Of a stretch of DNA of 55,350 nt, positions 3,743-37,173 are shown piece after piece (the first letter of the stretch is position 1; every line of letters begins with the position of its first letter). Source of the DNA: Dehalococcoidia bacterium (GTDB lineage: Bacteria > Chloroflexota > Dehalococcoidia > GIF9 > AB-539-J10). The DNA lies in assembly GCA_030605765.1 (NCBI GenBank), contig JAUWHP010000045.1, forward strand, positions 1 to 55,350, written 5' to 3'. The position numbers were made by a program, and so were the translations under genes. The notes beneath the pieces are model-generated. The model was not told the DNA's origin, searched no databases, and saw nothing but the letters and a program-made list of their open reading frames with translations.

Positions 3743-5551
3743 TCACACCCTGTCATTCTGGGGTTGTCTGAGAATCTCATGTTTCAACTTAAGATTTAGC
3801 TCGTCAAGTTGATTCTTATCCACGTACGAAGGAGCATCGAACATCACGTCAACAGCGTTTTGATTCTTAGGAAAGGCGATAACCTCCCTTATAGTTTGCT
3901 CTCCAGCAAGCAGCATCACCAGGCGGTCCAGGCCGATAGCAATGCCGCCATGAGGCGGTGCTCCATATTCCAATGCAGTGAGAAAATGCCCAAAACGGCC
4001 TTCTATCTCCTCTTGGCTATAGCCAAGGAGTTTGAATATTTTCTCCTGCAGCTCACGCTTATGCATCCTGATACTGCCGCTGCCGAGCTCACAGCCGTTG
4101 CACACCACATCATAATGGTGGGCATGGGCTTTAGCCGGCTCTGTATCCAGCAGTGGTATATCCTCCTGTCGAGGAGCAGTGAAAGGATGATGCATGCTCT
4201 CCCAGCAGCCTGTGGTCTCGCTCCATTCCAGTAAAGGGAAATCAACTACGAAAGCCAGCGCCAGCAAATTAGCATCGGCTAAACCAAGGCGCTTTGCCAT
4301 TTCGCCACGTAGCTCACCAAGCGCTTTATCGGCCAGCTCCGGCTTAGCGGCCACAATGAGCAGAAGGTCGCCGGGCCTGGCTTCCAGCCTGTCACATATA
4401 TCTTTTAACTGAGCCGAAGTCAGGTACTTCGCAGCCGCTGACTTAACTTTATCCAGCGCTGCGGTTTCTCCCGACAAAGATACAGTGGTTAAACCCTCCA
4501 CGCCACAAGTCCTGGCCAGGCTGATTAGCTCATCCAGTTGACGACGGCTGTAGTGGGCACAGCCAGGAACACATATACCCTTTACCCTGCCACCCATGGC
4601 AACTGCGGAGCGGAAAACAGCAAAATCTGTCTGAGCAGCAATGTCAGAGAGGTCTTTAAGCTCCAACCCGAACCTTACATCCGGTTTATCCGTGCCATAG
4701 CGTTCCATCACCTCTCCATAGGAGAAACGTGGGAAGGGCCTTAACACCCGCATTTCTGGCCTGACAGTCTCCACAAGCGAGGTAAAAAGCTCCTCCATAA
4801 GTTGCAATATGTCATTCTCCTCCACAAAGCTCATTTCTAAGTCCAGCTGAGTGAATTCGGGCTGTCGATCAGCCCTTAAATCTTCATCCCGAAAGCATTT
4901 TGCTATCTGAAAATACTTTTCCACACCAGCCACCATAAGGAGCTGTTTGAGTTGCTGTGGGGATTGCGGCAGGGCGTAAAACTTGCCCGGGTTGAGGCGA
5001 CTGGGCACCAGATAATCCCGGGCCCCCTCCGGAGTGCTCTTAATCAAAATGGGCGTTTCCACCTCAATAAAGCCCCTGGCATCGAGGAAATCCCGTATGA
5101 ACTTTATTACCCTGTGACGCAGGACAATGTTATCCCTCATTCTAGGCCTTCTTAAATACAAGTAGCGGCTCTTCAGACACAGGCTTTCCTCTATCTCTAT
5201 ATCCTCATTTATATAGAACGGCGGTGTTTCCGATGCGTTAAATATGACAGCCTTTTCCACTATGACCTCAATCTCTCCAGTAGCCAATTTAGGGTTCTCT
5301 GTGCCCTCAGGGCGGGAAACAATCTCCCCCACAACCTGAATCACATATTCGTGGCGCAGTGAGCCAGCCACCTGATATGCCTGTGGCCATATCTGCGGAT
5401 TGAACACTACCTGGACTATGCCACTGCTGTCTCGCAGGTCAATGAATGCTATGCCACCGTGGTCGCGACGTCGGTGCACCCAGCCAGCTAAAGTAACCTT
5501 CCGCCCCACATCTTTTTTTCTTAACTCAGCACAGCTATGACTCTTAAGCAA
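3743..5551 (-). CDS. aspS: Aspartate--tRNA ligase
   Basis: GWVHRRRDHG, EGARDYLVP, FRDEDLRADRQPEFTQLD, GAPPHGG; TTG start after GGAGGAGG. Confidence 0.97.
   Translation of the reverse strand: MLKSHSCAELRKKDVGRKVTLAGWVHRRRDHGGIAFIDLRDSSGIVQVVFNPQIWPQAYQVAGSLRHEYVIQVVGEIVSRPEGTENPKLATGEIEVIVEKAVIFNASETPPFYINEDIEIEESLCLKSRYLYLRRPRMRDNIVLRHRVIKFIRDFLDARGFIEVETPILIKSTPEGARDYLVPSRLNPGKFYALPQSPQQLKQLLMVAGVEKYFQIAKCFRDEDLRADRQPEFTQLDLEMSFVEENDILQLMEELFTSLVETVRPEMRVLRPFPRFSYGEVMERYGTDKPDVRFGLELKDLSDIAAQTDFAVFRSAVAMGGRVKGICVPGCAHYSRRQLDELISLARTCGVEGLTTVSLSGETAALDKVKSAAAKYLTSAQLKDICDRLEARPGDLLLIVAAKPELADKALGELRGEMAKRLGLADANLLALAFVVDFPLLEWSETTGCWESMHHPFTAPRQEDIPLLDTEPAKAHAHHYDVVCNGCELGSGSIRMHKRELQEKIFKLLGYSQEEIEGRFGHFLTALEYGAPPHGGIAIGLDRLVMLLAGEQTIREVIAFPKNQNAVDVMFDAPSYVDKNQLDELNLKLKHEILRQPQNDRV
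3751..3778. repeat. GTCATTCTG...GAATCTC REP-like element forming the aspS C-terminus
   Basis: TGTCATTCTGGGGTTGTCTGAGAATCTC, read as EILRQPQND after the normal AspS end. Confidence 0.55.
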
Positions 5552-5665
5552 AATGACCTCCTCCTGCGTGAACAGCGATTATAGCTTATGCAGGGCTTTC
5601 ATTCAATATGCACATGCCTGGTCATAACAGGCTCCACCGCCACTACAAAATCTTCAATTAAATAA

Positions 5666-7327
5666 CTATGACTGTGATAATTTTCGAAGAACGCTCACTA
5701 CATCCTCTTGAGGCACATCACTGCGAATCGTTGTCTTGCCTATGTCCCGCAACAACACCCAGCGAATGGCTTTGGTTCTGATCTTCTTATCCAGCTCCAT
5801 TGCCTTTTTTACATCCACCAAAGCTAATCCAGAAAAGGTAACAGGCAAGCCGAATCTTTGTAACAGCGATTGCTGTCGCTCGACCGCTTCCACAGATAGA
5901 AGACCCAGCCTCTGGCTGAGCTTGGCCGCTCCCATCATACCAATAGCCACCGCCTCGCCGTGGAGGAATCGCCTGTACTGGCTGGCTACTTCCAGGCCGT
6001 GAGCAATGGTATGCCCATAGTTCAGTATGATGCGCTTTCCCCTTTCCTTCTCATCCTCACTTACAACTTGAGCCTTGATAGCAGCGCTACGGGCAATAGC
6101 CTGGCGAACCGTGGCCGGCTCCAGTCCGATAAGCTTATCTACGTTAGCCTCCAGAAATTCGAAGAAATCCTTATCTAATATGAGGCCATACTTAATGACT
6201 TCAGCCCACCCTGAGGTTAATTCCCGCTCTGGTAAACTGGTAAGCGTCTGGCAATCGGCCAGGACAAAGTCAGGTTGATAGAAAGCGCCGATGAGATTCT
6301 TGCCTTGAGGGTGATTAATGCCCACTTTGCCGCCGATGCTGGCATCAACCATGGCTACTAAACTCGTTGGCACCTGTGCCCAGGATATGCCGCGCAAGAA
6401 AGTAGCGGCCACGAATCCAGCTAAATCACCCACCATGCCACCACCCAAAGCAATGAGAATATCTCCCCTCTCCACCCGCCTCTCCACCAGAAAGTCGTAA
6501 ATTCTGATGGCGGAATCGATATTTTTATTTTCCTCACCTGGTGACACTGCAAAGGAGTTGACTGTAAAACCAGCATCTCGTAAGGCTTCCTCAACCTTAC
6601 GGCCATAAATGGAAGCCACAGTTTCATCGCTGATTATGACAACCCTGCCAGACAAACCAAGCTCTTCTATCTTTTCACCCAACTTGTCCAAGAGACGGTA
6701 GCCAACGAAAACAGGATAACTTTGAGTAGCCGTTCTCACCCAGCAGGCAGCATCTTTATCAGTACCATTGCGAGCAGAGCAAAGCAACCTCCAACCCCTT
6801 ATTACTTCATCGGCCACCTGGCTTATGTTCAACCTATCGGTATGAACTGTCCAATCCACATTGGCGTAGTAAGGCTGTCTCGAGGCCTTAAGCTGCCTGA
6901 TGCTCTCCAGCGGGCTTTCGTCAGCCAGAAGAGGACGAACTTCAGGCCCGGAGCCATAAGTGGCATTTTGAAATAGGCGCTGGTAGATTGTTTCCGCTTT
7001 GGCTTCAAGACAAAAAATAAACCCACTCCTAGCTAGCAGTTCATAGTTGCGAAGATTAACGATGGCGCCGCCACCGACAGCTATAACCGATTGCTTCTGC
7101 TGGCAAGCTTTCTCTATCACCTGCCGCTCCAATTCTCTGAATCGGCTCTCTCCATCCTGCCTGAAAATCTCAGCGATGGGCTTGCCAGCCAGCTTGACTA
7201 CCTCATCATCAGTATCAATGAAAGCCCAACTTAACCGTTGGGCTACCTCCCTGGCCACCAGAGATTTACCCGTGCCTGAAAAGCCTGTGAGGATGATATC
7301 AGTTGTTTGACAGTTCATTTTCGCCAA
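5666..7327 (-). CDS. aroKB: Bifunctional shikimate kinase / 3-dehydroquinate synthase
   Basis: N-terminal GFSGTGKS P-loop and RPLL; C-terminal GGGMVGD, DASIGGK, LNYGHT, HGEAV. The start may be the ATG at 7318. Confidence 0.95.
   Translation of the reverse strand: MAKMNCQTTDIILTGFSGTGKSLVAREVAQRLSWAFIDTDDEVVKLAGKPIAEIFRQDGESRFRELERQVIEKACQQKQSVIAVGGGAIVNLRNYELLARSGFIFCLEAKAETIYQRLFQNATYGSGPEVRPLLADESPLESIRQLKASRQPYYANVDWTVHTDRLNISQVADEVIRGWRLLCSARNGTDKDAACWVRTATQSYPVFVGYRLLDKLGEKIEELGLSGRVVIISDETVASIYGRKVEEALRDAGFTVNSFAVSPGEENKNIDSAIRIYDFLVERRVERGDILIALGGGMVGDLAGFVAATFLRGISWAQVPTSLVAMVDASIGGKVGINHPQGKNLIGAFYQPDFVLADCQTLTSLPERELTSGWAEVIKYGLILDKDFFEFLEANVDKLIGLEPATVRQAIARSAAIKAQVVSEDEKERGKRIILNYGHTIAHGLEVASQYRRFLHGEAVAIGMMGAAKLSQRLGLLSVEAVERQQSLLQRFGLPVTFSGLALVDVKKAMELDKKIRTKAIRWVLLRDIGKTTIRSDVPQEDVVSVLRKLSQS
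6763..6791. repeat. GTCATTGCGAG...GCAATCTC-type element, in frame in the AroK-AroB linker
   Basis: TACCATTGCGAGCAGAGCAAAGCAACCTC, read as RLLCSARNG on the minus strand. Confidence 0.55.
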
Positions 7328-8510
7328 GCAAGATGCGGTTCAGGTAATTATGGTAATTTGCCAGCGTCTCTTTCAGGTTATCGCCGCCGAATTTGTCCAG
7401 GCAAGCATCGGTTAAAACGATGGCCAGCATCGCCTCGCCAATCACACCAGCAGCAGGGACGACACAAACATCGCTGCGCTCATAGTGAGCCCCGGCTATC
7501 TCGCCACTGCGGAGGTCTATGGAGGGCAGGGGATTTGCTAGAGTAGCAATAGGTTTAACCACAGCTCTGATTACTATTTCTTCGCCATTGCTCATCCCGC
7601 CTTCAATGCCACCAGCGCGGTTACTGGCATGACGCCAGGGAAGAGATTGCCTCGCCGCTTCGTTTTCCGCAGTGGCAAGGGAAGGATTGAGTTCAATAAT
7701 ATCATGAGCTTGAGAGCCACTGAGCCTGGCCAGGGCAAATCCAGAGCCGATTTCCACTCCCTTCACAGCATTGATGCTCATAATCGCTTGAGCAATCCTG
7801 CCGTCAAGGCGGCGTTCCCAGCCAGCATGGCTGCCTAAACCAACAGGCACACCAGCGGCGACTACCTCAAAAACTCCTCCCAAAGTATCCCCATCGGCTC
7901 TGGCTTTATCTATAGCTGCCATCATCTCCCTCTCCAATTCAGCATCAGCGCAGCGCAGCGGAGAAGCTTCCACCTGCTCCCAATCTATGGTTCTACCACC
8001 TTCCAGGCGGTGTTCACCAACAGCTAAAGTATGGCTATGAATAACAATGCCGAACTCCTGCAAGAACCTTTTGGCGATAGCTCCAGCAGCCACTCTGGCA
8101 GCGGTCTCTCGAGCACTGGCTCTCTCCATTATGGGTCTGATGTCTTTAAGGTTATATTTGGTCACCCCGGCTAAATCAGCATGTCCAGGGCGAGGATGAG
8201 TTATGGGTTCAGCCTCCTTTTCCACAGGCGCAACGCTCATTATTTCCTGCCAGTTTTGCCAATCCCGGTTAGGGATAAAAAGAGCAACGGGGCTACCTAT
8301 TGTCAGTCCATAACGGACACCCGAGATGATTTCCGCTTCATCCTTCTCTATTTCCATGCGGGGACCGCGTCCATAGCCTGCCTGGCGGCGCTTGAGCTCT
8401 TTGTTGATATCTTCAGCTTCCAGGGGAAGGCCAGCCACCATCCCCTCAACTATGGTCACCAATCCCTTCCCGTGGGATTCTCCAGCGGTGGTAAAGCGAA
8501 ATTCTCCCAT
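7299..8510 (-). CDS. aroC: Chorismate synthase
   Basis: TAGESHG, PRPGHAD, ERASARETA, GGIEGGMSNG, RSDVC. Confidence 0.97.
   Translation of the reverse strand: MGEFRFTTAGESHGKGLVTIVEGMVAGLPLEAEDINKELKRRQAGYGRGPRMEIEKDEAEIISGVRYGLTIGSPVALFIPNRDWQNWQEIMSVAPVEKEAEPITHPRPGHADLAGVTKYNLKDIRPIMERASARETAARVAAGAIAKRFLQEFGIVIHSHTLAVGEHRLEGGRTIDWEQVEASPLRCADAELEREMMAAIDKARADGDTLGGVFEVVAAGVPVGLGSHAGWERRLDGRIAQAIMSINAVKGVEIGSGFALARLSGSQAHDIIELNPSLATAENEAARQSLPWRHASNRAGGIEGGMSNGEEIVIRAVVKPIATLANPLPSIDLRSGEIAGAHYERSDVCVVPAAGVIGEAMLAIVLTDACLDKFGGDNLKETLANYHNYLNRILLGENELSNN
7643..7677. repeat. GAGATTGC...GCAATGAC-type element, in frame in aroC
   Basis: GAGATTGCCTCGCCGCTTCGTTTTCCGCAGTGGCA encodes ATAENEAARQS in the variable loop before NRAGGIEGG; flanked by AGGGAAG at 7637 and 7678. 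Confidence 0.6.
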
Positions 8511-8559
8511 TAGCGTCCTTCACCCTCACATAAGCTTCATGTAAGGAAGTCCCTTTTCC

Positions 8560-9513
8560 TTACAAGAAAGCAGTAAGTGAGACAAGATATTGAGGTTCAG
8601 GGAAAGTATGGCTTAAAGCCTGCAGCAGAGCTATGTCTTGCCCGCTCAATCCCAACAACCTCATTTGTACAGCGTAAACCAGGCTGCCGAGATTAAGTCC
8701 TAGCAGCGATTCTAACAATGACTTTTGGGGTCTGTAATACTCTATTTGAGGAGCCGTAACACCAGACAGCTCTGCCGCCAAATCTATAGCTGTATCCAGC
8801 CCGCCTAATTCGTCAACTAATCCCAATTCCCTGGCTTGGTCGCCAGTATAAAGCTGGCCGGTAGCTAAATTTCTGACCTCTTCTTTGCTCAACCCTCTAC
8901 TTTCAGCTACCATCCCCACGAATTGCTCATAATAGTCATCCACCATTTGTTGCATGATTTCTTCTTCCTCAGGCGTTAATTCCCTGAGCCCCGAGTACAT
9001 ATCTTTATATTTCCCGCCGGTGAAAATTTGCATTTCAATTCCCAGTTTGTCGTAAAGTCCTTTAACATTCGGTATCGTAGAGATAACACCGATGCTCCCG
9101 GTAGATGTGCCCGGAAGAGCCACGATCTTATCCGCTCTGGCTGAGATATAATAGCCACCAGAAGCAGCCATGCTCCCCATACTGACCACGACGGGTTTGG
9201 ATTGCTTAACCTTCTCTATTTCTGCCGAGATTTCCTGGCAAGGCGCCACTGCACCGCCAGAACTATCCACTCGCAGAACAATTGCCTTTACTGCAGCATC
9301 CATCTCTGCCTTATTCAGTTGCTCCCTCACCAAACTGGGAGTGATAGCCGAACCCCAAAACAAAGAGCTGCCTCCTGCTGTAATAGACCCAGTGAGAGAA
9401 ATCACCGCTATTTTATCTCCTGCCGGCATTACTGATATGCAGCCAGTAGGAATCAACATTGTAGCCAGCAATAACATGGCCAGGGCAATAGCTGTCACCT
9501 TTTTCTTCCTCAT
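8560..9513 (-). CDS. sppA: Signal peptide peptidase SppA (S49, 36K type), probable lipoprotein
   Basis: LRVDSSGG, SMGSMAASGGYY, TGSIGV; N-terminal hydrophobic stretch ending PTGC. Confidence 0.92.
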   Translation of the reverse strand: MRKKKVTAIALAMLLLATMLIPTGCISVMPAGDKIAVISLTGSITAGGSSLFWGSAITPSLVREQLNKAEMDAAVKAIVLRVDSSGGAVAPCQEISAEIEKVKQSKPVVVSMGSMAASGGYYISARADKIVALPGTSTGSIGVISTIPNVKGLYDKLGIEMQIFTGGKYKDMYSGLRELTPEEEEIMQQMVDDYYEQFVGMVAESRGLSKEEVRNLATGQLYTGDQARELGLVDELGGLDTAIDLAAELSGVTAPQIEYYRPQKSLLESLLGLNLGSLVYAVQMRLLGLSGQDIALLQALSHTFPEPQYLVSLTAFL

Positions 9514-10427
9514 CTTTTTCCTCCTATCAGTACCTTCCTCGCCTTATCCAACATTATGTCAACTGGGGCTTTCTTGCCCGTCCATAATTCAAAGGAGGCC
9601 GCTCCCTGATATACTAGCATGGCCAGGCCACCAAGTATATTTGCTCCCGCCTTCCCAGCCAACTCTAACAAGCGTGTGGGATAAGGATTATATACCAGGT
9701 CATAAACCAGGACACCCGGCGGAATCACCTCAATATCAAAAGGGGACTTGCTTTCTTGAGGGCTATGCTTCATTCCCACGCTGGTGCAATTAACTATTAA
9801 ATGGCAGTGAGTAAAAGTCTCACCTGAGCTTAGATTTTGACCGGGCAAAGTAATCACCTCTGTGCTCAATCCTTCCGAGCCTGCGGGTCGAAGCCCCGAA
9901 TAAAGTGAAGGGGAAGAATCTCCAATATAGCTTCTCAAGGTCTCTGCTAATGTTTCAGCTCGCACGGGCGTTCGATTGATGATAATGAGCGAGCTTACTT
10001 TCTCCCGCACCAGGGCGAAACATACCGCCCTCGCAGCCCCACCTGCACCAAGAACCACCACTCGTTTACCTTCAGGGTCAAAATGGCCTTCCTGCCGTAA
10101 GCCCTCAAGGAAACCATGAGCATCGGTATTGAAACCCAAAAGCCTATTATCCCTCTTAACTATGGTATTGACAGCACCAATCAAGCCCGCCAGGTCATCA
10201 ACCTCGTCCAATAAAGGTAAAACTGCTTCCTTATAAGGCACAGTTACATTGGCTCCCAGATTTCGAGGCTCCCTTAGTCCAGTTACCACAGCCTCAAGTT
10301 TCTCCGGGCTTGTTTCCCAGGCTTCATAGCGAATATCAAGGTGGTAGGAATCCAGAGCCGCTTGCTGAAAATATGGAGAGACGGAATGTTTGATGGGATA
10401 ACCAATGAGGCCAATGAATTTTGTCAC
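9510..10427 (-). CDS. aroE: Shikimate dehydrogenase
   Basis: HSVSP, NVTVPYK, GAVNT, NTD, GAGGAARA, DLVYNP, GLAMLVYQG. Confidence 0.95.
   Translation of the reverse strand: MTKFIGLIGYPIKHSVSPYFQQAALDSYHLDIRYEAWETSPEKLEAVVTGLREPRNLGANVTVPYKEAVLPLLDEVDDLAGLIGAVNTIVKRDNRLLGFNTDAHGFLEGLRQEGHFDPEGKRVVVLGAGGAARAVCFALVREKVSSLIIINRTPVRAETLAETLRSYIGDSSPSLYSGLRPAGSEGLSTEVITLPGQNLSSGETFTHCHLIVNCTSVGMKHSPQESKSPFDIEVIPPGVLVYDLVYNPYPTRLLELAGKAGANILGGLAMLVYQGAASFELWTGKKAPVDIMLDKARKVLIGGKR
9868..9922. repeat. Composite REP-like element, in frame in aroE
   Basis: CCGAGCCTGCGGGTCGAAG-CCCCGAATAAAGTGAAGGGG-AAGAATCTCC encodes GDSSPSLYSGLRPAGSEG; it ends in GAATCTC like the aspS copy. Confidence 0.6.
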
Positions 10428-10876: not shown

Positions 10877-10877
10877 A

Positions 10878-13511
10878 TTAGACCTGACGAGCTCGCTTAG
10901 CTTGGCTGGCAACAACGCTTTTAACTAAACTCAAGGCTTCATCAAGCTTAGCTGCATCCTTGCCACCTGCTTCAGCCATAGTTGCTTTGCCTCCCCCTCC
11001 ACCACCAGCCACCTTAGCCACCTGCTTAACAATATCACCGGCATGAAGCCCCTTAGCCACGAGATCAGGAGTAACCATAGCCAGAAAGTTAGGCTTGCCC
11101 CTATAAACCGTAGCTAGAACTACCACGACACTCCTCAATTTGTCCCGCAATATATCACCCATTTCCCTGAGAACAGGCATAGTCAACAGCGGCACTTTAG
11201 CCGTTAAAACTGTTACCCCATTAACCTGCACTGTTTGCTTAAGCAAGGATTCCGCTATTTTGCGTGACAGCTCCCTTTCCAATAACAACAATCTCTTATG
11301 TTCTATTTCTCGCTCGCCAATAAGAGCACTTACTTTAGTGGAAACTTCCTCAATAGAACTCCCTACTTCCTTAGCCACATCTTGCAAAGCAGAAAGACGC
11401 TTTTCAAACAATAATTCAGCAGCTCTTCCGGTCACAGCTTCAATGCGACGCAGGCCAGTGCCAATGCTGCTTTCACCACATATAAGGAAAAGACCAATTT
11501 CACCTGTTGATTTAACGTGTGTGCCACCACAAAGCTCCTTGCTTATTGGCGGCTCGCCAAGTTCGACCAGGCGAACTTCCTCCCCATATTTCTCTTCAAA
11601 TAAAGCAATAGCACCTTCAGCGATAGCCTGCTTATAAGGAATGACTCTTGACTTTACCGGTAAGTTTTGACGTATTTTGTCATTAATCCATCTTTGAATC
11701 TCTCCAAGCTGTTCTTCAGTTATAGCTGCCAGCCAGGAGAAATCGAATCTGAGCCTATTTGACTCTACTAACGAACCTCTTTGAGAAACGCGGTCGCCCA
11801 ATATTTGTCTTAAAGCAGCTTGAAGAAGATGCGTAGCGGTATGATTGCGAGCGATATCCAGACGACGAGCTACATCAACGCTAGCCTCTACCTCGTCGCC
11901 CACAGAGATCTCGCCTCCAGAAATTTTCCCCCGGTGGACTATCATATCGCCAGCACTTCTAACAGTATCAGTTATGATAACTTTTCCTTTGTTGCTGCTT
12001 ATTTCACCGCTGTCCCCTACTTGCCCTCCCATCTCACCATAAAAAGGAGTCTTGTCAAGAATTATGTCAATCCCATCTCCTTGAGCAGCAGTTTTTTTAG
12101 GCTGCCCTTGAACCCTTAACTCAAGGATTTTAGATTGCGCGGTGTTTGTTTCATACCCAACAAACTCTGTGGGTGTAACGATTCTCGCCCTGGCGGTGGC
12201 TGTCTTAGTAAAAGTCTGAGCTGCCTTGGCTCTCTCTCTCTGCTTTCCCATCTCAAATTGGAAGCCTTCCCAATCTATAGATAGGCCTCGCTCCTTAGCA
12301 ATTTCAGCGGTTAGTTCTTTAGGAAAGCCATAAGTATCATAAAGTCTAAACACCTGCTCTCCCGGCAGCCATTCTCCTCCCCGACTTAGAGCTTCCCCTA
12401 CGAGCTCTTCCACCAAACCAAGCCCTGCATCCAGGGTAGCAATGAATCTCTCCTCTTCTGCTCTGGTAACTTCGCTAATTAAGCTTCGGTTAGTTATCAA
12501 TTCAGGATACACATGACTCATATTATCGATAACAACCTCTGCAACTTCGCCAAGAAAAAGCCTATCCAGGCTCAATCTTCTGCCAAAAAGAGAGGCGCGG
12601 CGCAATAGTCGCCGTAAGACATAGCCTCTTCCCTCATTAGAGGGTAAGACTCCATCAGCAATAAGGAATGTGATGCCCCGAGTATGCTCGGCAACGATTC
12701 TAATAGCCCTGTTATCACCCCCATCCTCACCATAACTCTTACCTGTTAACTGGCAAACCCGTTGCATCAACGGTGAAAAAATGTCTGTTTCATAAACTGA
12801 GGCCTTACCCTGCACTGCCGCTGCAATCCTTTCCAGCCCCATTCCAGTGTCAATATTCGGCTTGGGCAGAGAATTACGACTACCATCGGGGTTCTGGTTA
12901 TACTGGGTGAACACCAGATTCCATATCTCAAAGAAACGGTCACAATCGCAATTAGGTTTGCACTCAGGCCTACCACAGCCAATTCCCTCGCCCATGTCAT
13001 AGTGTATTTCGCTGCACGGCCCGCAGGGCCCAGAATCGCCAGCCGGACCCCAGAAATTGTCCTCATCGCCAAAGCGTAATATCCTATCAGCAGAAACTCC
13101 AACTTGGCGCCAACAAGCGAAGGCTTCATCATCATCGAGGTAAATAGTCACCCAGAGCCGCTCTTTGGGTAGTTTCAACTGCTCCGTGACAAATTGCCAT
13201 GACCAGAAAATAGTTTCTTTTTTGAAATAATCACCCACACTGAAGTTTCCCAGCATCTCAAAGAAAGTAAGATGCTTCCCATCGCCTACTGCATCTATAT
13301 CGGTAGCACGAAAACACTTTTGGCAGGAGGTCAACCGCGAGTTGGGAGGCTTCCCCAGTCCCAGGAAGTAGGGTTTGAACTGCACCATACCAGCGCTGGT
13401 CAGCAGTAGAGTAGGATCTCCATGGGGAACTAAAGATATACCAGGGACGACCTTATGCCCCCTGTTCTCGAAGAATTTCAGGAAAAGTTGTCTGATCTCG
13501 TCGCTAGTCAC
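10878..13511 (-). CDS. alaS: Alanine--tRNA ligase
   Basis: AGMVQFK, HLTFFEMLGNFS, IDTGMGLER, HTATHLL and ELCGGTH editing motifs, GGGGGG C-terminus. Confidence 0.98.
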   Translation of the reverse strand: MTSDEIRQLFLKFFENRGHKVVPGISLVPHGDPTLLLTSAGMVQFKPYFLGLGKPPNSRLTSCQKCFRATDIDAVGDGKHLTFFEMLGNFSVGDYFKKETIFWSWQFVTEQLKLPKERLWVTIYLDDDEAFACWRQVGVSADRILRFGDEDNFWGPAGDSGPCGPCSEIHYDMGEGIGCGRPECKPNCDCDRFFEIWNLVFTQYNQNPDGSRNSLPKPNIDTGMGLERIAAAVQGKASVYETDIFSPLMQRVCQLTGKSYGEDGGDNRAIRIVAEHTRGITFLIADGVLPSNEGRGYVLRRLLRRASLFGRRLSLDRLFLGEVAEVVIDNMSHVYPELITNRSLISEVTRAEEERFIATLDAGLGLVEELVGEALSRGGEWLPGEQVFRLYDTYGFPKELTAEIAKERGLSIDWEGFQFEMGKQRERAKAAQTFTKTATARARIVTPTEFVGYETNTAQSKILELRVQGQPKKTAAQGDGIDIILDKTPFYGEMGGQVGDSGEISSNKGKVIITDTVRSAGDMIVHRGKISGGEISVGDEVEASVDVARRLDIARNHTATHLLQAALRQILGDRVSQRGSLVESNRLRFDFSWLAAITEEQLGEIQRWINDKIRQNLPVKSRVIPYKQAIAEGAIALFEEKYGEEVRLVELGEPPISKELCGGTHVKSTGEIGLFLICGESSIGTGLRRIEAVTGRAAELLFEKRLSALQDVAKEVGSSIEEVSTKVSALIGEREIEHKRLLLLERELSRKIAESLLKQTVQVNGVTVLTAKVPLLTMPVLREMGDILRDKLRSVVVVLATVYRGKPNFLAMVTPDLVAKGLHAGDIVKQVAKVAGGGGGGKATMAEAGGKDAAKLDEALSLVKSVVASQAKRARQV

Positions 13512-14540: not shown

Positions 14541-14542
14541 GC

Positions 14543-24514: not shown

Positions 24515-25771
24515 ATGAGCAGTACTGAAAAAACCAGCCTTCTCAAAATGGTGGTGAGCCAAATTGATGCCGCCTGTGAACGACTAAATGTTCAAGATTC
24601 GTGCCGTTTGCGGCTGCGGAAGTGCGAGCGTGAGCTAATAGCTAATTTTCCTGTAAAAATGGACGATGGAACAGTAAGAATCTTCACTGGCTTCAGGGTT
24701 CAACATAATGATTCCCGCGGGCCATGTAAAGGTGGGATTCGCTATCACCCAGATATTACTTTAGACCAAACTCGGGCTTTGGCAGCTCAGATGACTATGA
24801 AGGCTGCAGTTGTCAATGTACCTTACGGTGGTGCCAAAGGAGCTATTATTTGCAACCCAAAGCTCATGTCTCAATCTGAGCTGGAGAGGTTAACTCGGCG
24901 TTATGCCTGCGAGATATCGCTGTTAATAGGCCCTGAGAGTGATATACCGGCTCCTGAGGTAGGCACAAATCCTCAAACCATGGCATGGATTATGGACACC
25001 TATAGCATGGCGAAGGGATATTCTATCCCAACGGTGGTCACAGGTAAGCCTATAGAAATAGGTGGTAGCAAGGGCAGGCTTGAAGCCACAGGCCATGGTT
25101 GTATGATAAGTGCCAAATTGGCAGCCAAGCAAAGACATCTCAGCCTGCGAGTAGCTACCGTAGCAATTCAGGGTGCTGGCAATGTAGCCTCCTCAGCAGC
25201 TAAGCAGCTAGCCAGAGAAGGCTGTCAAATCATAGCAATGAGCGATTCCACCGGCGGGGCCTATAACCCACAAGGCTTAGACATAGAGAGTTTGCTCAAT
25301 TACAAGAAGGAAACAGGCTCGGTGATTGGCTTTCCTGGTACTGACATCATAACTAATGCTGACCTACTGGCACTACCGTGTGATATTCTGATGGCGGCAG
25401 CTACGGAAAGACAAATAACAGCAGACAATGCAGCACAGGTAAAGGCGAAGATTGTTGTAGAAGGTGCCAATGTGCCCACTACCCCCAAGGCGTCTAAGAT
25501 TCTTTACGATAATGGAGTATTTGTTGTTCCCGATATATTAGCCAGTACAGGAGGGCTCATAATCTCGTACTTTGAGTGGGTACAAAACATACAATCTTTG
25601 TTTTGGCAGGAGTGGGAGGTAAACGATAGCCTACAAAGATTACTAACCGATGCCTTTACAGAAGTTCTGGAAATTACCCGGGCTGAGAAAACAGATATGA
25701 GAAGCGCCGCCCATATGTTAGCGGTAAAACGAGTGGTATCTGCTATGTCCGCAAGAGGAATATACCCCTAA
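24515..25771 (+). CDS. Glu/Leu/Phe/Val dehydrogenase, divergent paralog
   Basis: GPCKGGIRYHP and YGGAKG are present, but DIPAPEVGT, EGANVP and ASTGGLIISYFEW deviate from the consensus. Confidence 0.88.
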   Translation: MSSTEKTSLLKMVVSQIDAACERLNVQDSCRLRLRKCERELIANFPVKMDDGTVRIFTGFRVQHNDSRGPCKGGIRYHPDITLDQTRALAAQMTMKAAVVNVPYGGAKGAIICNPKLMSQSELERLTRRYACEISLLIGPESDIPAPEVGTNPQTMAWIMDTYSMAKGYSIPTVVTGKPIEIGGSKGRLEATGHGCMISAKLAAKQRHLSLRVATVAIQGAGNVASSAAKQLAREGCQIIAMSDSTGGAYNPQGLDIESLLNYKKETGSVIGFPGTDIITNADLLALPCDILMAAATERQITADNAAQVKAKIVVEGANVPTTPKASKILYDNGVFVVPDILASTGGLIISYFEWVQNIQSLFWQEWEVNDSLQRLLTDAFTEVLEITRAEKTDMRSAAHMLAVKRVVSAMSARGIYP

Positions 25772-25807
25772 TCACACGGAAATGCATTGTTTAAAGAGAG
25801 AATATAG

Positions 25808-26578
25808 ATGAAAGAGATAAGGATTATACCTTGCCTTGACGTGAAGGATGGGCGTGTGGTTAAAGGAGTTAGATTTGAAAACCTGAGAGATGCCCGAGAC
25901 CCCGTAGAAGCAGCGGAGACCTATTGTCACGAAGGCGCAGACGAGCTAGCCTTCCTCGATATCGCTGCTACTGTAGAGAATAGAGGGACGAGGCTAGAAT
26001 GGGTCAAGAAAGTGGCAGAAAAGATTACTATCCCTTTTACAGTAGGTGGTGGAATTAGAAATATCGAGGATATAAAGGCATTGCTTGATCTTGGTGTGGA
26101 TAAAGTCTCCATTAATACCGCAGCCGTTAGGAATCCTGACTTTATCAGAAAAGCAGCTAAAGAGTTTGGCCATGATAAATTAGTGGTTGCTATTGATGGG
26201 AAGAAAAATCCGATAGAAAGCAAATTGCCCAGATTAGAGGTAGTGGTAAAAAGCGGAGCAGAGTCCACAGGTATGGAGCTTGTCAATTGGGCAAAGAGAG
26301 TGGAGGAGCTAGGAGCTGGAGAGATTTTGCTTACCAGCAAGGATACCGATGGGACAAAAGAAGGATATGACCTGGAAATGACTAAAACCGTGGCTGAGAC
26401 AGTTAAGATACCAGTTATTGCTTCAGGCGGTGCAGGTAAACTCGAACACCTGTATGAAGCTGTAACAATTGGTAAGGCATCAGCAGTTTTAGCCGCTTCG
26501 ATCTTCCACTTCAGGGAGATTTCAATACCTCAAGCGAAACGATACCTGAAGCAACAAGGTATAGCAATAAAAGTATAA
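25808..26578 (+). CDS. hisF: Imidazole glycerol phosphate synthase cyclase subunit
   Basis: RIIPCLDVKDGRVVKG, VVAID, GAGEILLTS, DGTKEGYD, IASGGAG, LAASIFH. Confidence 0.93.
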   Translation: MKEIRIIPCLDVKDGRVVKGVRFENLRDARDPVEAAETYCHEGADELAFLDIAATVENRGTRLEWVKKVAEKITIPFTVGGGIRNIEDIKALLDLGVDKVSINTAAVRNPDFIRKAAKEFGHDKLVVAIDGKKNPIESKLPRLEVVVKSGAESTGMELVNWAKRVEELGAGEILLTSKDTDGTKEGYDLEMTKTVAETVKIPVIASGGAGKLEHLYEAVTIGKASAVLAASIFHFREISIPQAKRYLKQQGIAIKV

Positions 26579-26831
26579 GGAAAACAAAGACGCCTCTTTG
26601 TCAAATTGTGTGGAAACAGCTACGAGATAGTATAAACCCCATGAGCATTTTGCTTTCTGTATTACCTCTCTGGGCAAAACCATTGGTAAAGCCGCTGCCA
26701 GAATGGCTCAGCGTAGGCTCTCTCGGCCACTTTAGAGCATTGCTCCTCCTTACAAACTCGCCAAAACCTTGCCCCCCCCATCTAATCTCGAGCTATAATG
26801 TTTAGAATTTTTATGAAACGGAGGTACAAAA

Positions 26832-28079
26832 GTGACAGAACAACTAAACCCATTCAAGATAGCACAAGCACAATTAGATAAGGCTGCGGAGAAATTAAAT
26901 CTAGATTCACAGATGCATGCTTTCCTCAGAGAGCCAATGCGCGAGTTGTCAGTATCCATACCTGTTAAGATGGATGATGGTAGCACGAAAACATTCAAAG
27001 GCTTCAGAATTCAATATAATGATGCCAGAGGGCCAACGAAAGGAGGAATAAGGTTTCACCCGCAAGAAACAATAGATACCGTTCGTGCACTGTCAGCGTG
27101 GATGACTTGGAAATGCGCTGTGGCTGATATCCCCTACGGAGGCTCAAAAGGAGGCATTATTTGTGACACAAAACAGATGTCCCAGGGTGAAATTGAAAGG
27201 CTATCCAGAGGATATATAGACCAAATATGGAGCTTCATTGGCCCTGAAAAAGATATACCTGCGCCAGACGTTTACACAAACCCACAGATTATGGCCTGGA
27301 TGATGGACGAATACAGTAAAATAAGAGGTTACAATGTACCAGGTATAATTACGGGAAAGCCCATTCCTCTAGGAGGCTCTCTGGGCCGAGGAGACGCTAC
27401 CGCGATGGGTGTGGTCTACACCATCAGAGAAGCTGCCAAGGTTCTAGACATTGATCTCAAGGGTGCCACTGTTGCCATTCAAGGATATGGCAACGCGGGG
27501 TACCACCTTGCCAGATTGCTTACAAATCAAGGGTGCAAAATCATCGCAGTCACCGATTCCAAAGGCGGCATTTCGCGTGAAGACGGTCTGGATTGGAAGG
27601 CAGCAAAGGAACACAAGGATAGAACCGGATCCGTTATTGGTTACCCTGGAACAAAGCAACTAACAAACGAGGAATGCTTAGCTGTCAAATGTGATTTCCT
27701 GGTACCTGCGGCTTTGGAAAATCAGATAACAGGGAAAAACGCTAATAACATAAAGGCCAAAATAGTTGCCGAGGCCGCAAATGGCCCTGTAACACCAGAA
27801 GCCGATGAAATACTATACAAAAGGGGCATCTTTCAAATTCCCGACTTTCTTTGCAATGCTGGCGGAGTAACAGTTTCTTATTTTGAGTGGGTTCAGAACA
27901 TCTCTGGATACTACTGGTCTGAGGAAGAAGTGTACGAGAGACTGGATAAGAAAATGACAAAGGCATTCTATGACGTGTATGAGATGGCTAAAAAGGAAGA
28001 CGTTGATAATAGGACAGCCGCCTATATGGTTGCAGTGAACAGGGTAGCTGAAGCAATTAAACTCCGTGGGTGGATATAG
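26832..28079 (+). CDS. gdhA: Glutamate dehydrogenase (canonical)
   Basis: [49 protein letters not shown]; GGAGG RBS and an upstream TATAAT. Confidence 0.93.
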
Positions 28080-28154
28080 CAAATAGTATAGAGCAGCCTA
28101 ACATACTACCAGTACCTCAACACTGAAGTAAGTTTTCTTCGAGATTCTACTAAC

Positions 28155-28218
28155 AAAGCACCGGCTATCTTTCTCATAGTTAGTGAATTAACTCTCGATA
28201 AGGATAAGCGGTGCTTTT
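28155..28218 (+). terminator. Long imperfect hairpin with T tail after gdhA
   Basis: AAAGCACCGgcTATC...GATAagCGGTGCTTTT with an inner AGTTA/TAACT stem. Confidence 0.55.
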
Positions 28219-28246
28219 CATTCGCAATTACTCTAAATATTAAAGA

Positions 28247-29521: not shown

Positions 29522-29650
29522 CAGAAAAGCTAAAAGAAGGTAAAATAAAGAGGGTAAAGGCAAATCGAGCAGTGTGGCAAGCCCGTACAGTAAATGCTTG
29601 GCCTTAGGCCCGAGCCCAAGAAATTGCTTGACTCTGTTCTTGGTAGATAA

Positions 29651-30334: not shown

Positions 30335-30372
30335 ACGTAATTTAGAGGTAAGATTATATTCGGAGGTTAATT

Positions 30373-30903: not shown

Positions 30904-30963
30904 CCAATTTAATTCTAGTACCTACTCCCGAATATCCTCAGAAGCAAAGCTAACAAGGAGTTC

Positions 30964-31899: not shown

Positions 31900-31980
31900 G
31901 ATTTCACCTTCGCTTTGCTCTCAAATTAGCCACAGGCCATCAACCGACTACTGGCCGCCGGGCGCTAAATGCTTCTCACG

Positions 31981-32847: not shown

Positions 32848-32936
32848 TTGTTGTGGGCTAAATTGTAAACTAGTGAAAGGTTACATGTCTATGGTGTTTA
32901 TGTAAATATTTGCCAATTTTGGGTATAATGCCTCAA

Positions 32937-33806: not shown

Positions 33807-34395
33807 GCAAATCCGTTCTTTTATCGCTATCGAGTTACCCCAGAATGTTAAAAACGAACTGGCGCAGCTAAGAAGCGAACTGGAAAAAACTGAACATCCC
33901 TTTATTAAATGGGTGAACCCGGAGAGCATTCACCTAACTTTAAAATTCTTGGGCAATATTCCCTTTAAGCAGGTGGCCGAAATAGCCAACGCTATAGAAC
34001 AAGCTGCTAAAGGGATTCTCCCTTTCCATCTGGAACTTTCAGATCTGGGAGTTTTCCCCAGCACGAAGCAGCCACGCGTTCTTTGGGTTGGCATCAAGGG
34101 AGAAATAGATAATCTACTGAACTTGCAACGAAATATTGATTCTGCGCTTGCCCCTCTTGGCTTCGCTGAAGAGAAGCGTTCTTTTACACCACATCTAACC
34201 CTAGCTCGTGTTAGAGAAGGGGCAACGCTAGCGGATAGAAAAAATTTTGGCGGACTGGTGCTATCTACCAGTTTCGCAAGCAGTTACCCCCTTAGCGTAG
34301 AAACTATTTGCCTTATGAGAAGTCAGCTAACGCCTCAGGGAGCGATTTATACTCGCTTAGTTACAGTGAAGTTACAACTTACAGAAGCTAGCTAA
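33790..34395 (+). CDS. thpR: RNA 2',3'-cyclic phosphodiesterase
   Basis: RSFIAI, two HLTL motifs, PRVLWVG; probable TTG start. Confidence 0.92.
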   Translation: MPHDSEQIRSFIAIELPQNVKNELAQLRSELEKTEHPFIKWVNPESIHLTLKFLGNIPFKQVAEIANAIEQAAKGILPFHLELSDLGVFPSTKQPRVLWVGIKGEIDNLLNLQRNIDSALAPLGFAEEKRSFTPHLTLARVREGATLADRKNFGGLVLSTSFASSYPLSVETICLMRSQLTPQGAIYTRLVTVKLQLTEAS

Positions 34396-34416
34396 GGTCC
34401 CAATAACAAATAAGAA

Positions 34417-37173
34417 TTGATGTCAGCAGAAAAGAACATACAAAATAAGAAAGAGCGCCTGTTATTGCTCTTAGACGGCACTGCTTTAGCGCATCGTGCA
34501 TTTCATGCCTTGCCTCCATTGACAGTACCTAAAACGGGGGAGGCGATAAATGCTGTTTATGGCTTTGCCAGTACATTGCTCAAGATGCTTGCTGAACTTA
34601 AACCGACTCATTGGGCTGTCGCTTTCGATCGCCCCACTCCAACCTTCAGGCACGAAAAATTCAAAGAATATAAGGCACAACGCCCCAAAGCACCAGAGGA
34701 GCTGAAAAGCCAGTTAAAACGCATTCACCAACTGGCGAATAGCTTCCACATTCCTATTTTTGAAATCGATGGCTTTGAAGCCGACGACATTTTGGGCACT
34801 TTGAGCAAGCAGTCTAATGAGCATGGCATTGAAAGTATTATCGTTACCGGCGACAATGACATACTGCAGCTTGTAGTGCCGGGAGTAAAAGCCTTGATGC
34901 CAAGGCGGACATTCAAGGACACGATTCTTTATAACGAACAGGCAGTTAAGCAAAAGTACGGCATCGCACCAGCACAAATCACCGATCTTAAGGCGCTAGC
35001 TGGTGATGCTTCAGATAACATCCCCGGCATTCCAGGCATCGGCGAGAAAACAGCCACTAAATTAATCCAACAATATGGCAGCGTTGAAGGAATCTATGTC
35101 CATATTGAACAGATAGTGCCGAGCAAGCTACAAACAACGCTGCGCCAATATCGATCCCGGGCTTTCCAAAATAAGGAACTAGTCACCATAGTTAGAGATG
35201 TTCCCATTAGTTTAAGCCTAGAAAGCTGCCAGGTAAGCGCCTATGACCGGACTGAGGTGGTAGCGCTATTCCGGGAGCTTGAGTTCATCCAACTGCTACC
35301 CAGATTGCCACAGGACAGTTATCAGCTAACAGTCGACAACTTTCAGAGAGGCACCTATCAAATAATAAACACCGAGCTTGCCCTGAGTCAGTTGTTAGAT
35401 CAACTCAAGGCAACAAATGAAATAGCCATTGACCTCGAAACCGCCCTCACCCCCTCCCTTGAAGGGAAAGGTATTAAGAGTGAGGCCATGGCAGCAAAGT
35501 TGGTGGGAATAGCAATATCTCCAGCTTCAGGAAAAGCATTTTATATGCCGCTAGGACACCGCGGCTTAAACCAACCTGAGCAACTACCACAAGCTCGAGT
35601 CATAGAGGCGCTAAAGCCAATCTTAGAAGCTAAGAACATAGAGAAAATAGCTTATAGTGGTAAACATGATATGGCCGCGTTGGCTAATTATAGAGTGAAG
35701 CTGGAAAATTTGAATTTTGACCTTATGCTTGCCGCTCACCTGCTGGGAGAAAAAAATCTGAGCCTTAAAGCAATTGCCTTCAACAAACTGGGAATTGAAA
35801 TACCGCTCCTCACTGATTTGATTGGCACGGGGAAAAAACAAGTTTCCTTAGCCACACTAGAAATGAGAAAAGTTGCCGATTATGCTTGCACAAATGCTGA
35901 TATCGCCTGGAGCTTAAAAGATAGCTTAGCGAGTGAGCTGAATCAGCAAGGATTATGTCAACTCTTCGACACAGTAGAACTGCCCTTAATTCCAGTTCTT
36001 TTAGCCATGGAGCAAAATGGCATTGCTCTCGACACTCGCTTGCTAAGAGAAATGTCTCTCGAATTAGGCAAGGAAATGATGAATCTAGAAACGCAAATCT
36101 ATAACAGCATCGGCTATAAATTCAACATCAATTCCTCCCACCAACTAGCTGGTGTGCTGTTTGAACAACTCAAACTACCCCGGTCTCGCAAAACAAAAAC
36201 CGGGTATTCCACACAGGCCTCGGTGCTTGAAGAATTAAAAGGCCTCCACCCCATAGTTGAACTTGTGTTGCAGTATCGTCAACTCGGTAAACTTAAATCA
36301 ACGTATGTTGATGCTCTACCTGCGCTTGTCAATCCTGAAACTGGCAGAGTGCACACCAATTTTAACCAAACAGGCACTTCCACGGGACGGCTTTCCTCGA
36401 ACGAGCCGAACTTACAAAATATCCCTGTAAGAGGAAAACTGGGAAATAGAATACGGCAAGCTATTATTGCCCCACCTGGTTCATATCTCTTAAGTGCTGA
36501 TTACTCCCAGGTTGACCTCAGGGCGCTAGCGCATCTTTCCCAGGATTCTGACCTTATCGCTGCCTTTGCCCACAACGAGGATATCCACACCACAACTGCT
36601 GCAAAACTTTTTGGCGTTCCCCCCGACAACGTAAATGCCGAGATGCGTCGAGTTGCCAAGACGGTTAACTTTGGCATTATTTATGGTATGAGTGATTATG
36701 GATTAGAGCAAGCCACTGAACTTAACCGTGAGGAAGCTACACAATTCATCGCTTTATACTTTGAAAGATATCCCGGGGTAAAGGAATATATTGAGAAAAT
36801 CAAAGAGCAAGCCAGGCGATCAGGCTACGTACAAACAGTGATGGGAAGACGGAGACTCATACCTGAAATCAATTCCCTAAATCGACAGATTCGAGAAGCA
36901 GCAGAGAGGATGGCCATAAATGCCCCTGTGCAAGGAACCTCTGCTGATATTATCAAAATCGCTATGATCAATATATATCGTGAAATGAAAACCCGAAATT
37001 TAAACAGCAAGATGCTCCTTCAAATTCATGATGAACTGCTCTTTGAGGTGCCTCAGGAGGAAATAGAGGAGATGAAATCCCTGCTCACTGAGCTTATGCC
37101 CGAAGCCATTAAGCTTTGTGTACCCTTAACAATAGATATCAAGCTGGGGGAAAACTGGGGTGAGATGGCATAG
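34417..37173 (+). CDS. polA: DNA polymerase I
   Basis: 5'-nuclease (FEADD, GDASDNIPG), TGRLSS, ADYSQ, AKTVNFGIIYG, QIHDEL. Confidence 0.98.
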   Translation: MMSAEKNIQNKKERLLLLLDGTALAHRAFHALPPLTVPKTGEAINAVYGFASTLLKMLAELKPTHWAVAFDRPTPTFRHEKFKEYKAQRPKAPEELKSQLKRIHQLANSFHIPIFEIDGFEADDILGTLSKQSNEHGIESIIVTGDNDILQLVVPGVKALMPRRTFKDTILYNEQAVKQKYGIAPAQITDLKALAGDASDNIPGIPGIGEKTATKLIQQYGSVEGIYVHIEQIVPSKLQTTLRQYRSRAFQNKELVTIVRDVPISLSLESCQVSAYDRTEVVALFRELEFIQLLPRLPQDSYQLTVDNFQRGTYQIINTELALSQLLDQLKATNEIAIDLETALTPSLEGKGIKSEAMAAKLVGIAISPASGKAFYMPLGHRGLNQPEQLPQARVIEALKPILEAKNIEKIAYSGKHDMAALANYRVKLENLNFDLMLAAHLLGEKNLSLKAIAFNKLGIEIPLLTDLIGTGKKQVSLATLEMRKVADYACTNADIAWSLKDSLASELNQQGLCQLFDTVELPLIPVLLAMEQNGIALDTRLLREMSLELGKEMMNLETQIYNSIGYKFNINSSHQLAGVLFEQLKLPRSRKTKTGYSTQASVLEELKGLHPIVELVLQYRQLGKLKSTYVDALPALVNPETGRVHTNFNQTGTSTGRLSSNEPNLQNIPVRGKLGNRIRQAIIAPPGSYLLSADYSQVDLRALAHLSQDSDLIAAFAHNEDIHTTTAAKLFGVPPDNVNAEMRRVAKTVNFGIIYGMSDYGLEQATELNREEATQFIALYFERYPGVKEYIEKIKEQARRSGYVQTVMGRRRLIPEINSLNRQIREAAERMAINAPVQGTSADIIKIAMINIYREMKTRNLNSKMLLQIHDELLFEVPQEEIEEMKSLLTELMPEAIKLCVPLTIDIKLGENWGEMA
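35316..35340. repeat. 7-bp periodic repeat remnant in the polA inter-domain linker
   Basis: CAGTTAT CAGCTAA CAGTCGA CAAC. Confidence 0.35.
35444..35486. repeat. Palindromic element, in frame in the polA 3'-5' exonuclease domain
   Basis: CCTCAC...TCCCTTGAAGGGA...GTGAGG nested hairpin; the 14-mer ATTAAGAGTGAGGC is identical to 54709-54722. Confidence 0.7.

What the first reader, a model, noticed from the sequence alone, without database searches (positions are those of the whole stretch)
3751..35486. Short palindromic repeats translated in frame inside core genes (Rickettsia-RPE-like process)
Seen: five essential-type genes (aspS, aroKB, aroC, aroE, polA) each carry a 28-55 bp insert at a terminus, linker or loop. 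Each insert resembles an intergenic repeat type (GTCATT...GAATCTC, GTCATTGCGAG...GCAATCTC, CCTCAC...GTGAGG), and the reading frame stays open. The polA insert has free intergenic relatives in this window (1707, 2403, 54679). Known: Rickettsia palindromic elements insert in frame into genes and create new peptide sequence. Inference: the same process runs here through several repeat families and adds new loops to enzymes. I am not aware of it being described in Dehalococcoidia. No mobilising nuclease is in the window, and the repeat consensus shapes are from my memory.
Basis: partly seen in the sequence, partly recalled or inferred. Interest (0 to 1): 0.8.

Follow-up and report, generated by a model that had tools for sequence, protein, structure and literature searches.

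The report
Repeat relics translated inside core genes
Several housekeeping enzymes of this sediment Dehalococcoidia bacterium carry short extra loops, a linker and a tail that are old copies of small dispersed DNA repeats read as protein, a known kind of selfish-DNA behaviour whose likely partner nucleases survive only in relatives.

Summary
polA, aroC and aroE carry in-frame loop inserts (+10, about +9 and +14 residues) that most orthologs lack. The aroK-aroB linker is encoded by a repeat copy but has no net length gain. The aspS tail (+5 to 8 residues) has the repeat's shape but no statistical support.

The inserts derive from three short repeat families: A (GTCATTGCGAG core), A' (GTCATTCYGAG core) and B (a C-run/G-run hairpin). 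Relatives hold clean copies at the same protein sites, so these sites are hot spots.

In this genome the process is fossil. Its genus has 0-7 exact cores per genome against 100-178 in some relatives. The copies are degenerate.

The predicted nucleases appear only in relatives. A 95-residue GIY-YIG gene has family A cores within 300 nt in 80 of 80 loci across many phyla. Small DUF559 genes are flanked by family B.

This matches intragenic REPs/RPEs (Di Nocera 2013) and Ssn nucleases with their hairpin repeats (Chenal 2025). This scan had already found the phenomenon in other Dehalococcoidia genomes. Verdict: real, a new member of a known kind, moderate interest.

The parts
35445..35485 (+). Family B hairpin repeat in frame in polA (residues about 343-357, LTPSLEGKGIKSE), directly after the ExoI DxE motif; net +10 residues
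   Evidence: (E=0.0026)
9873..9923 (-). Family A'-type repeat in frame in aroE (residues 169-185); net +42 nt compared with the 92%-identical ortholog
   Evidence: low-confidence coil; copies elsewhere
7643..7685 (-). Degenerate family A copy in frame in an aroC loop (residues 276-289, SLATAENEAARQS); ends in GCAATCTC
   Evidence: pLDDT below 50 at 275-289
6762..6791 (-). Family A copy (reverse orientation) encoding the aroK-aroB linker WRLLCSARNG; no net length gain
   Evidence: (E=0.068)
3752..3778 (-). A'-shaped element forming the C-terminal tail of aspS (EILRQPQND; stop at 3743-3745)
   Evidence: no HMM or BLAST support
1705..1743 (+). Intergenic family B copy near one end of the ORF at 1766-2437(-), which I read by eye as clpP
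   Evidence: E=0.015; hairpin -15 kcal/mol
54679..54720 (+). Intergenic relative of the polA insert, just after the stop of ORF 53548-54672
   Evidence: score 38 against null 99th percentile 20

Best explanation
The five segments are copies of short dispersed repeats that landed in loops, a linker and a terminus of housekeeping genes. Only copies whose net length kept the frame open survived. They are now inherited as coding sequence.

Three families are involved. Families A and A' carry a GTCATT tag, a weak 5-bp stem and an AATCTC tail. Family B is a strong C-run/G-run hairpin followed by TTAAGGTGAGG-like sequence.

Most insertions are old. The polA copy dates to the common ancestor of this genus and G017. 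The aroC copy is shared by all four genomes of the genus. In this genus the families have nearly died out, so the copies are decaying relics predicted to sit in disordered surface loops.

Inferred, not shown: the repeats were spread by small nucleases whose genes they flank in relatives. Family A would be spread by a 95-residue single-domain GIY-YIG enzyme of the Ssn type, which in Neisseria cuts ssDNA next to such hairpins. Family B would be spread by a small DUF559 endonuclease. Recurrent hits at the same protein sites would reflect both target preference and what the proteins tolerate.
For: - Delimitation by orthologs.
- Links to the repeat families: polA E=0.0026; aroKB E=0.068, the best non-seed hit; the G001 aroKB linker is among 22 hits at E<=0.01 in 727 kb; aroE 31/34, 20/20 and 19/19; aroKB 27/30 to a GIY-YIG flank.
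- Clean copies at the same sites in relatives: aroC in L035, L036, L044, L045, L049, L055; aroE in L063; polA in L003; the aroKB linker in L094, L096, L097, L112, L113.
- The polA tree groups G017, G002, G003, G000 and G001 as one insert-bearing clade. G015 lies apart with a different hairpin at the same site.
- More in-frame copies exist elsewhere in this genome: carA linker, ABC-F linker, recG, thiD2-thiE.
- The inserts are low-confidence coil in models of aroE and aroC.
- Contigs of 4 runs from 4 studies bridge four of the sites without gaps.
- Nucleases: family A cores lie within 300 nt of the GIY-YIG gene in 80 of 80 loci, and on both sides in 67 of 80. Density is 7.9/kb inside that zone against 0.73/kb further out.
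- The gene was found in 12 of 41 genomes. None of the 14 genomes with 12 or fewer cores has it; 9 of the 14 with 90 or more do.
- Family B HMM hits flank all 5 distinct small, strongly matching DUF559 loci.
- Chenal 2025 (PMC11893778; sections 6, 7, 10 and passages read) shows that Ssn cuts ssDNA near its repeats.
Against: - The aspS tail has no HMM or BLAST support.
- The window's aroC copy gives no hit with my family A HMM at E<100. Its assignment rests on relatives at the same site.
- The aroKB linker shows no length gain.
- Neither the small GIY-YIG gene nor DUF559 was found in this genome or its three genus mates, and this genome also has no Y1_Tnp match. All are incomplete MAGs (68-96% complete).
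- Some repeat-rich relatives also lack the GIY-YIG gene: G007 has 192 cores and G024 has 248.
- Family A does not fit the published SRM search pattern: 0 matches in G000 and 1 of 80 loci.
- No one has shown that Ssn or DUF559 moves repeats.
- Two of my 10 family A seeds and some family B seeds turned out to lie inside ORFs.
- The related genomes are not independent, so the rank test overstates the association.
Confidence: 0.8

Rival explanations
1. The segments are ordinary lineage-specific indels in variable loops. Their likeness to repeats is chance or composition.
For: The aspS tail and the window's aroC copy lack direct HMM support. The loops concerned vary in length among orthologs anyway. 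Family A is short, so E-values are weak.
Against: The polA hit has genome-wide E=0.0026. The aroKB and aroE segments match copies next to GIY-YIG genes in other classes. Relatives carry canonical GTCATTGCGAG-bearing DNA at exactly the same sites. The reversed-pattern control gives 0-2 per genome against up to 178.
Confidence: 0.07
2. The repeats are host-selected functional modules, such as RNA or DNA structures for termination or mRNA stability, or useful peptide loops. They would be kept in genes by selection rather than as tolerated selfish DNA.
For: The polA insert has kept its length over about 25% protein divergence. The inserts are fixed in four populations. Intergenic copies sit just past gene ends, like terminators. 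Di Nocera 2013 (passages read) discusses RNA roles for REPs.
Against: The hairpin is lost in G002 and G003 polA while the length is kept. The peptides differ by reading frame and orientation between genes. Close relatives do without the aroE insert. The inserts are modelled as disordered.
Confidence: 0.1
3. The in-frame copies are artefacts of metagenome assembly or binning at repeats.
For: The genome is a MAG of 47 contigs. Repeat clusters lie at contig ends (C32, C37). G001 holds two versions of the aro genes.
Against: The same inserts occur in independently assembled genomes G001, G002, G003 and G017. They also occur in contigs of four other runs that bridge the sites with 0 gaps.
Confidence: 0.02

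Closest known systems
Rickettsia palindromic elements (RPE) and intragenic REPs in general (Ogata 2000, as summarised in PMC10969869, passages read; Di Nocera et al. 2013, PMC3733652, abstract, section 6 and passages read)
   Same: Small dispersed repeats found both between genes and in frame inside unrelated housekeeping genes, often replication and repair genes. They add peptide segments in loops, linkers and termini.
   Different: These elements are 27-57 nt, against about 150 bp for the classic RPEs. Several families coexist, and the lineage is Dehalococcoidia. Family A has the TGTC/CGTC-type tag and an AT-start stem, but a 5-bp stem, a long loop and a CTC tail. CGTC REPs have an 8-9 bp stem, a 4-5 nt loop and a CCA tail.
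Ssn single-domain GIY-YIG ssDNA nucleases with NTS/SRM hairpin repeats (Chenal et al. 2025, PMC11893778)
   Same: A nuclease gene of about 95 residues with only a GIY-YIG domain, bracketed by hairpin repeats that begin (C/T)GTCATT and end AATC. The repeats are scattered through the genome in tens to hundreds of copies. Gene presence tracks repeat number.
   Different: Family A does not match the published SRM search pattern. Membership of the nuclease in cd10448 could not be tested. The gene was not found in this genome or its genus. The paper does not treat in-frame copies; my term search of it for 'coding' found 2 unrelated uses.
REP/RAYT (REPIN) systems
   Same: Short hairpin repeats whose copy number depends on a single-copy enzyme gene that they flank.
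   Different: No Y1 transposase was found in this genome. The flanked genes here are GIY-YIG and DUF559 nucleases.

Membership tests
RPE-like intragenic repeats (as a behaviour) | The same repeat family has both intergenic and in-frame intragenic copies in unrelated housekeeping genes | tested here: met
   Family B: polA, recG and thiD2-thiE, plus about 16 other places. Family A: aroKB, carA and ABC-F, plus intergenic copies.
RPE families of Rickettsia (membership) | Element size of about 100-150 bp and sequence homology to RPE-1..10 | tested here: not met
   The elements are 27-57 nt. Homology was not tested because no RPE sequence was on hand.
CGTC-tagged REP superfamily (Di Nocera 2013) | Unpaired CGTC/TGTC/CCTC tag at one end | tested here: met
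   7 of 10 family A seeds read xGTCAT. The 22 harvested copies mostly read TGTC or CGTC.
CGTC-tagged REP superfamily (Di Nocera 2013) | Stem of 8-9 bp starting with AT, loop of 4-5 nt, CCA tail | tested here: not met
   The stem is ATTGC/GCAAT (5 bp) with a loop of about 12 nt, folding at -2.7 kcal/mol, and the tail is CTC.
SRM/NTS repeats of Ssn | Match to the published degenerate SRM search sequence | tested here: not met
   0 matches in G000 against 2-9 in shuffles. 1 of 80 GIY-YIG loci matches: L244, an NTS-like copy.
SRM/NTS repeats of Ssn | Repeats flank a single-domain GIY-YIG gene on both sides, and genome copy number tracks the gene | tested here: met
   80 of 80 loci have a core within 300 nt, and 67 of 80 on both sides. 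All of this is in relatives, not in G000.
Ssn nuclease family | Assignment to CDD cd10448 and site-specific ssDNA cleavage | not testable with these tools
   Pfam GIY-YIG hits only. Weak PDB matches to UPF0213 proteins 1zg2 and 1ywl.

The most novel reading that the evidence does not exclude
Families A/A' and B are the gene-less offspring of two kinds of tiny one-gene mobile elements: an Ssn-type GIY-YIG nuclease and a DUF559 nuclease, each bracketed by its own hairpins. These elements move between phyla and seed ssDNA-prone sites. The same loops of core enzymes are therefore hit again and again, and the copies become raw material for new loops, tails and fusion linkers. A lineage that loses the nuclease, like this genus, keeps a dated fossil record of the copies.
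Probability: 0.35. Interest if true: 0.7.

Novelty: new member of a known kind. Interest (0 to 1): 0.4.

Why it matters
The case shows that short selfish repeats have shaped loops, a domain linker and perhaps a terminus of essential enzymes in an abundant group of sediment bacteria. The same protein sites are hit independently in different lineages.

The genus studied here is a natural end-state. No nuclease gene was found in it, its repeat families are nearly extinct, and the in-gene copies are frozen and decaying. That could be used to date insertions and to measure how fast such peptides are remodelled.

The results also extend the published Ssn-repeat association. A repeat variant that the published search pattern misses is tied to the nuclease gene in 80 of 80 loci across many phyla. 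The results also point to an analogous DUF559-repeat pairing, for which my one search (titles and abstract openings only) turned up no paper.

Tried and rejected
- The literal search for GTCATTGCGAG in the window found nothing at up to 1 mismatch. The window's copies differ at 2 or more positions.
- The repeat finder on the window gave only chance-level pairs. The families became visible only genome-wide, through k-mers.
- My family A HMM did not detect the aroC, aspS or aroE segments.
- Rfam and tRNA scans of the window found nothing.
- DUF559 and Y1_Tnp searches of this genome found nothing, and its only GIY-YIG is a 612-residue frame that I take to be uvrC.
- NCBIfam gave no useful name for the small GIY-YIG protein.
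- Literature searches for GIY-YIG with REP, for Dehalococcoidia with in-frame repeats, and for DUF559 with repeats returned nothing relevant by title or abstract opening.
- Read laying showed no indel polymorphism at the insert sites. These were contigs, which can hide rare variants.
- A second GTCATT..GAATCTC match inside alaS (11679-11702) was not examined.
- I did not test the BoxC lead from earlier notes.
- Supplementary tables of Di Nocera 2013 and Chenal 2025, which list intragenic REPs and SRM-bearing genomes, could not be seen. They may already include Chloroflexota.

Full report
**Context.** The window is contig C29 of a 951-kb, 47-contig MAG that is 87.6% complete. A 100%-identical match of a relative's gene is titled "Dehalococcoidia bacterium". 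That places the family in Dehalococcoidia, as earlier notes on this genome also say. Near-identical DNA occurs in cold-seep and marine-sediment metagenomes from six studies.

**The genes.** Pfam confirms the five genes:
- aspS, 3743-5551(-)
- an aroK-aroB fusion, 5666-7327(-)
- aroC, 7299-8510(-)
- aroE, 9510-10427(-)
- polA, 34417-37173(+)

**The repeat families.**
- The window alone shows no repeat families, and GTCATTGCGAG is absent from it at up to 1 mismatch.
- Genome-wide k-mer counts reveal small families.
- Family A begins (T/C)GTCATTGCGAG and ends GCAATCTC. Family A' begins GTCATTCYGAG and ends GAATCTC.
- Family B is a C-run/G-run hairpin followed by TTAAGGTGAGG-like sequence. These families often sit side by side in intergenic clusters.
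- As DNA, family A folds weakly (-2.7 kcal/mol, 5-bp stem). Family B folds well (-10 kcal/mol).
- HMMs built from 10 family A copies and 8 family B copies find 11 places (E<=0.3) and 22 places (E<=0.05) in the genome.
- Two of my family A seeds and some family B seeds later proved to lie inside ORFs.

**polA.**
- The element at 35445-35485 follows the ExoI DxE motif.
- Among 30 orthologs, 23 lack it, 1 (G019) has a 4-residue remnant and 6 have it.
- G017 has the cleanest family B copy. The window's copy is 6 nt shorter. In G002 and G003 the hairpin has decayed but the length is kept.
- The family B HMM, which contains no window sequence, hits the element at E=0.0026 against the whole genome.
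- In a FastTree of polA with the insert masked and L022 left out, G017, G002, G003, G000 and G001 form one clade. G015 lies elsewhere and has a different hairpin at the same site, so the site was hit at least twice.

**aroC.**
- The window's residues 276-289 (SLATAENEAARQS) precede the conserved LPWRH.
- Baseline orthologs have about 4 residues there.
- Six relatives outside the genus have plain family A translations and canonical DNA with GTCATTGCGAG...GCAATC at this site. These are G009, G019, G022, G007, G020 and G024 (the last with about 75 residues).
- The four genomes of the genus share a degenerate version of the same length as in G019 and G020. It ends in GCAATCTC.
- A second aroC site, empty in the window, carries inserts in G009, G008, G010 and G024.

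**aroE.**
- Residues 169-185 are a net +14 residues compared with the 92%-identical G001 ortholog.
- G009 has a clean 27-nt A' element at the same place. G003 and G012 have shorter versions.
- Part of the window's insert matches three copies elsewhere: 31/34 to the composite aroC insert of G024, 20/20 next to the GIY-YIG gene of G013, and 19/19 on contig C23 of this genome.

**aroK-aroB linker.**
- Positions 6762-6791 (WRLLCSARNG) are 24/30 identical, by my count and without gaps, to a family A copy read in reverse. blastn-short gives 24/27.
- This is the best non-seed hit of the family A HMM (E=0.068).
- The G001 version is among 22 hits at E<=0.01 in 727 kb of relatives' loci.
- It also matches GIY-YIG flanks in other classes at 27/30.
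- The linker is no longer than in outgroups. Five relatives (G009, G019, G008, G010, G007) have much longer repeat-built linkers here.

**aspS.**
- The genus ends ...KHEILRQPQNDRV, whereas several relatives of the family end ...KHEIL/IRSE or shorter. G004 ends in a typical repeat-type tail.
- The DNA has the A' shape, but there is no HMM or BLAST support. This is the weakest case.

**Other in-frame copies in this genome.** These are the carA inter-domain linker, an ABC-F linker, the recG N-terminal region and a thiD2-thiE fusion.

**Structure and population.**
- AlphaFold models place the aroE insert in coil, with block pLDDT values of 58 and 71 in a model averaging 92.6.
- The aroC insert falls in a segment with pLDDT below 50.
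- Contigs from four runs of four studies bridge the aspS tail, the aroKB linker and the aroC and aroE inserts with no gaps.

**Abundance.**
- Exact GTCATTGCGAG counts are 7, 3, 0 and 2 in the four genomes of the genus. Counts are 100-178 in G009, G024, G017, G040, G012 and G007.
- The reversed control gives 0-2 per genome.
- GTCATTCYGAG gives 1-4 in the genus (control 0-3) and up to 148 elsewhere.

**Nucleases.**
- This genome has no DUF559 or Y1_Tnp match, and only one large GIY-YIG frame.
- A subfamily of 95-residue GIY-YIG genes was found in 12 of 41 related genomes and in none of the genus.
- Family A HMM hits lie within about 350 nt of the gene in 4 of its 7 fetched loci, and beside none of the 7 small GIY-YIG genes of other subfamilies.
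- A scan of species genomes found at least 576 relatives. The best 80 share 63-100% identity and span Dehalococcoidia, Desulfobacterota, Nostocales, anammox Planctomycetota, CPR, Nitrospirota and others.
- All 80 have a family A or A' core within 300 nt, and 67 have one on both sides. A common layout is forward upstream and reverse downstream. Density is 7.9/kb inside that zone against 0.73/kb further out.
- Core counts have a median of 101 where the gene is present and 37 where it is not. None of the 14 genomes with 12 or fewer cores has the gene. The genomes are related, so this is descriptive only.
- Small DUF559 genes were found in relatives (10 of 41 genomes have any match). Family B hits flank all 5 distinct small, strong loci and none of the 5 weaker or larger ones. 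Background in housekeeping loci is 6 places in 294 kb.

**Comparison with the literature.**
- Di Nocera et al. 2013 describe tagged REPs, including intragenic ones that often lie in replication and repair genes. They equate RPE-4 and RPE-6 with CGTC REPs.
- Chenal et al. 2025 show that single-domain GIY-YIG Ssn enzymes cut ssDNA near NTS/SRM hairpins, which begin CGTCATT. The repeats flank ssnA like an insertion sequence, and repeat-rich genomes usually have the gene.
- Family A shares the tag, the tail and the gene association. It fails the published search pattern: 0 matches in G000, and 1 of 80 loci, the one match being NTS-like. It also fails the CGTC stem, loop and tail rules.
- I found no paper on this phenomenon in Dehalococcoidia or on a DUF559-repeat pairing (listing only).
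- Earlier notes of this scan report the same behaviour in other Dehalococcoidia genomes, including aroC and polA.

**Verdict.** This is a real RPE-like record of in-frame repeat insertions. In this genome it is mostly ancient and decaying. It is a known kind of event in a lineage where I found no published description.

Noticed in passing
window 1387-1400, and G000 C15:6603, C18:6900, C19:36193, C31:3959, C3:15534: A 14-mer (GTCTCTTCCAATAC) recurs 5-6 times in the genome. In several copies it is followed by a similar ...GATGAGCCTGGAGGGA... stretch. It could be a shared leader, promoter or small-RNA motif. Rfam finds nothing in the window.
   Followed up: no
G000 C17:735-781 and C17:3228-3274: A third, longer C-run/G-run hairpin module sits next to family A+B clusters. 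The whole A+B+C cluster is duplicated 2.5 kb apart on C17.
   Followed up: no
window 6765-6789: Four single-base differences cluster inside the 30-nt repeat-derived aroK-aroB linker in contigs of three other runs. They make the linker more like the G001 allele (K for R, D for G).
   Followed up: partly
polA ExoI motif, window about 35431-35442, and loci L004-L007, L022-L025: The ExoI DxE motif is DLE in the window but reads SFE, ELE, ALE, LQA or VVP in relatives. The 3'-5' exonuclease may be inactive in parts of this order, which would relax constraint at the insert site.
   Followed up: no
window 11679-11702 (inside alaS): A second GTCATT..GAATCTC pattern match in the window lies inside alaS. 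It was not compared with orthologs.
   Followed up: no
window 24515-28079: Two paralogous Glu/Leu/Phe/Val dehydrogenase genes (418 and 415 residues) bracket hisF.
   Followed up: no
G001 contigs C61 and C77: The genus mate G001 holds two versions of aroC, aroE and aroKB (about 92-94% and 74-80% identity to the window). This MAG probably mixes two species.
   Followed up: no
L244 (Planctomycetota record): One of the 80 GIY-YIG loci is flanked by a canonical NTS-type repeat that fits the published SRM pattern. This ties the GIY-YIG subfamily to the Ssn system.
   Followed up: partly
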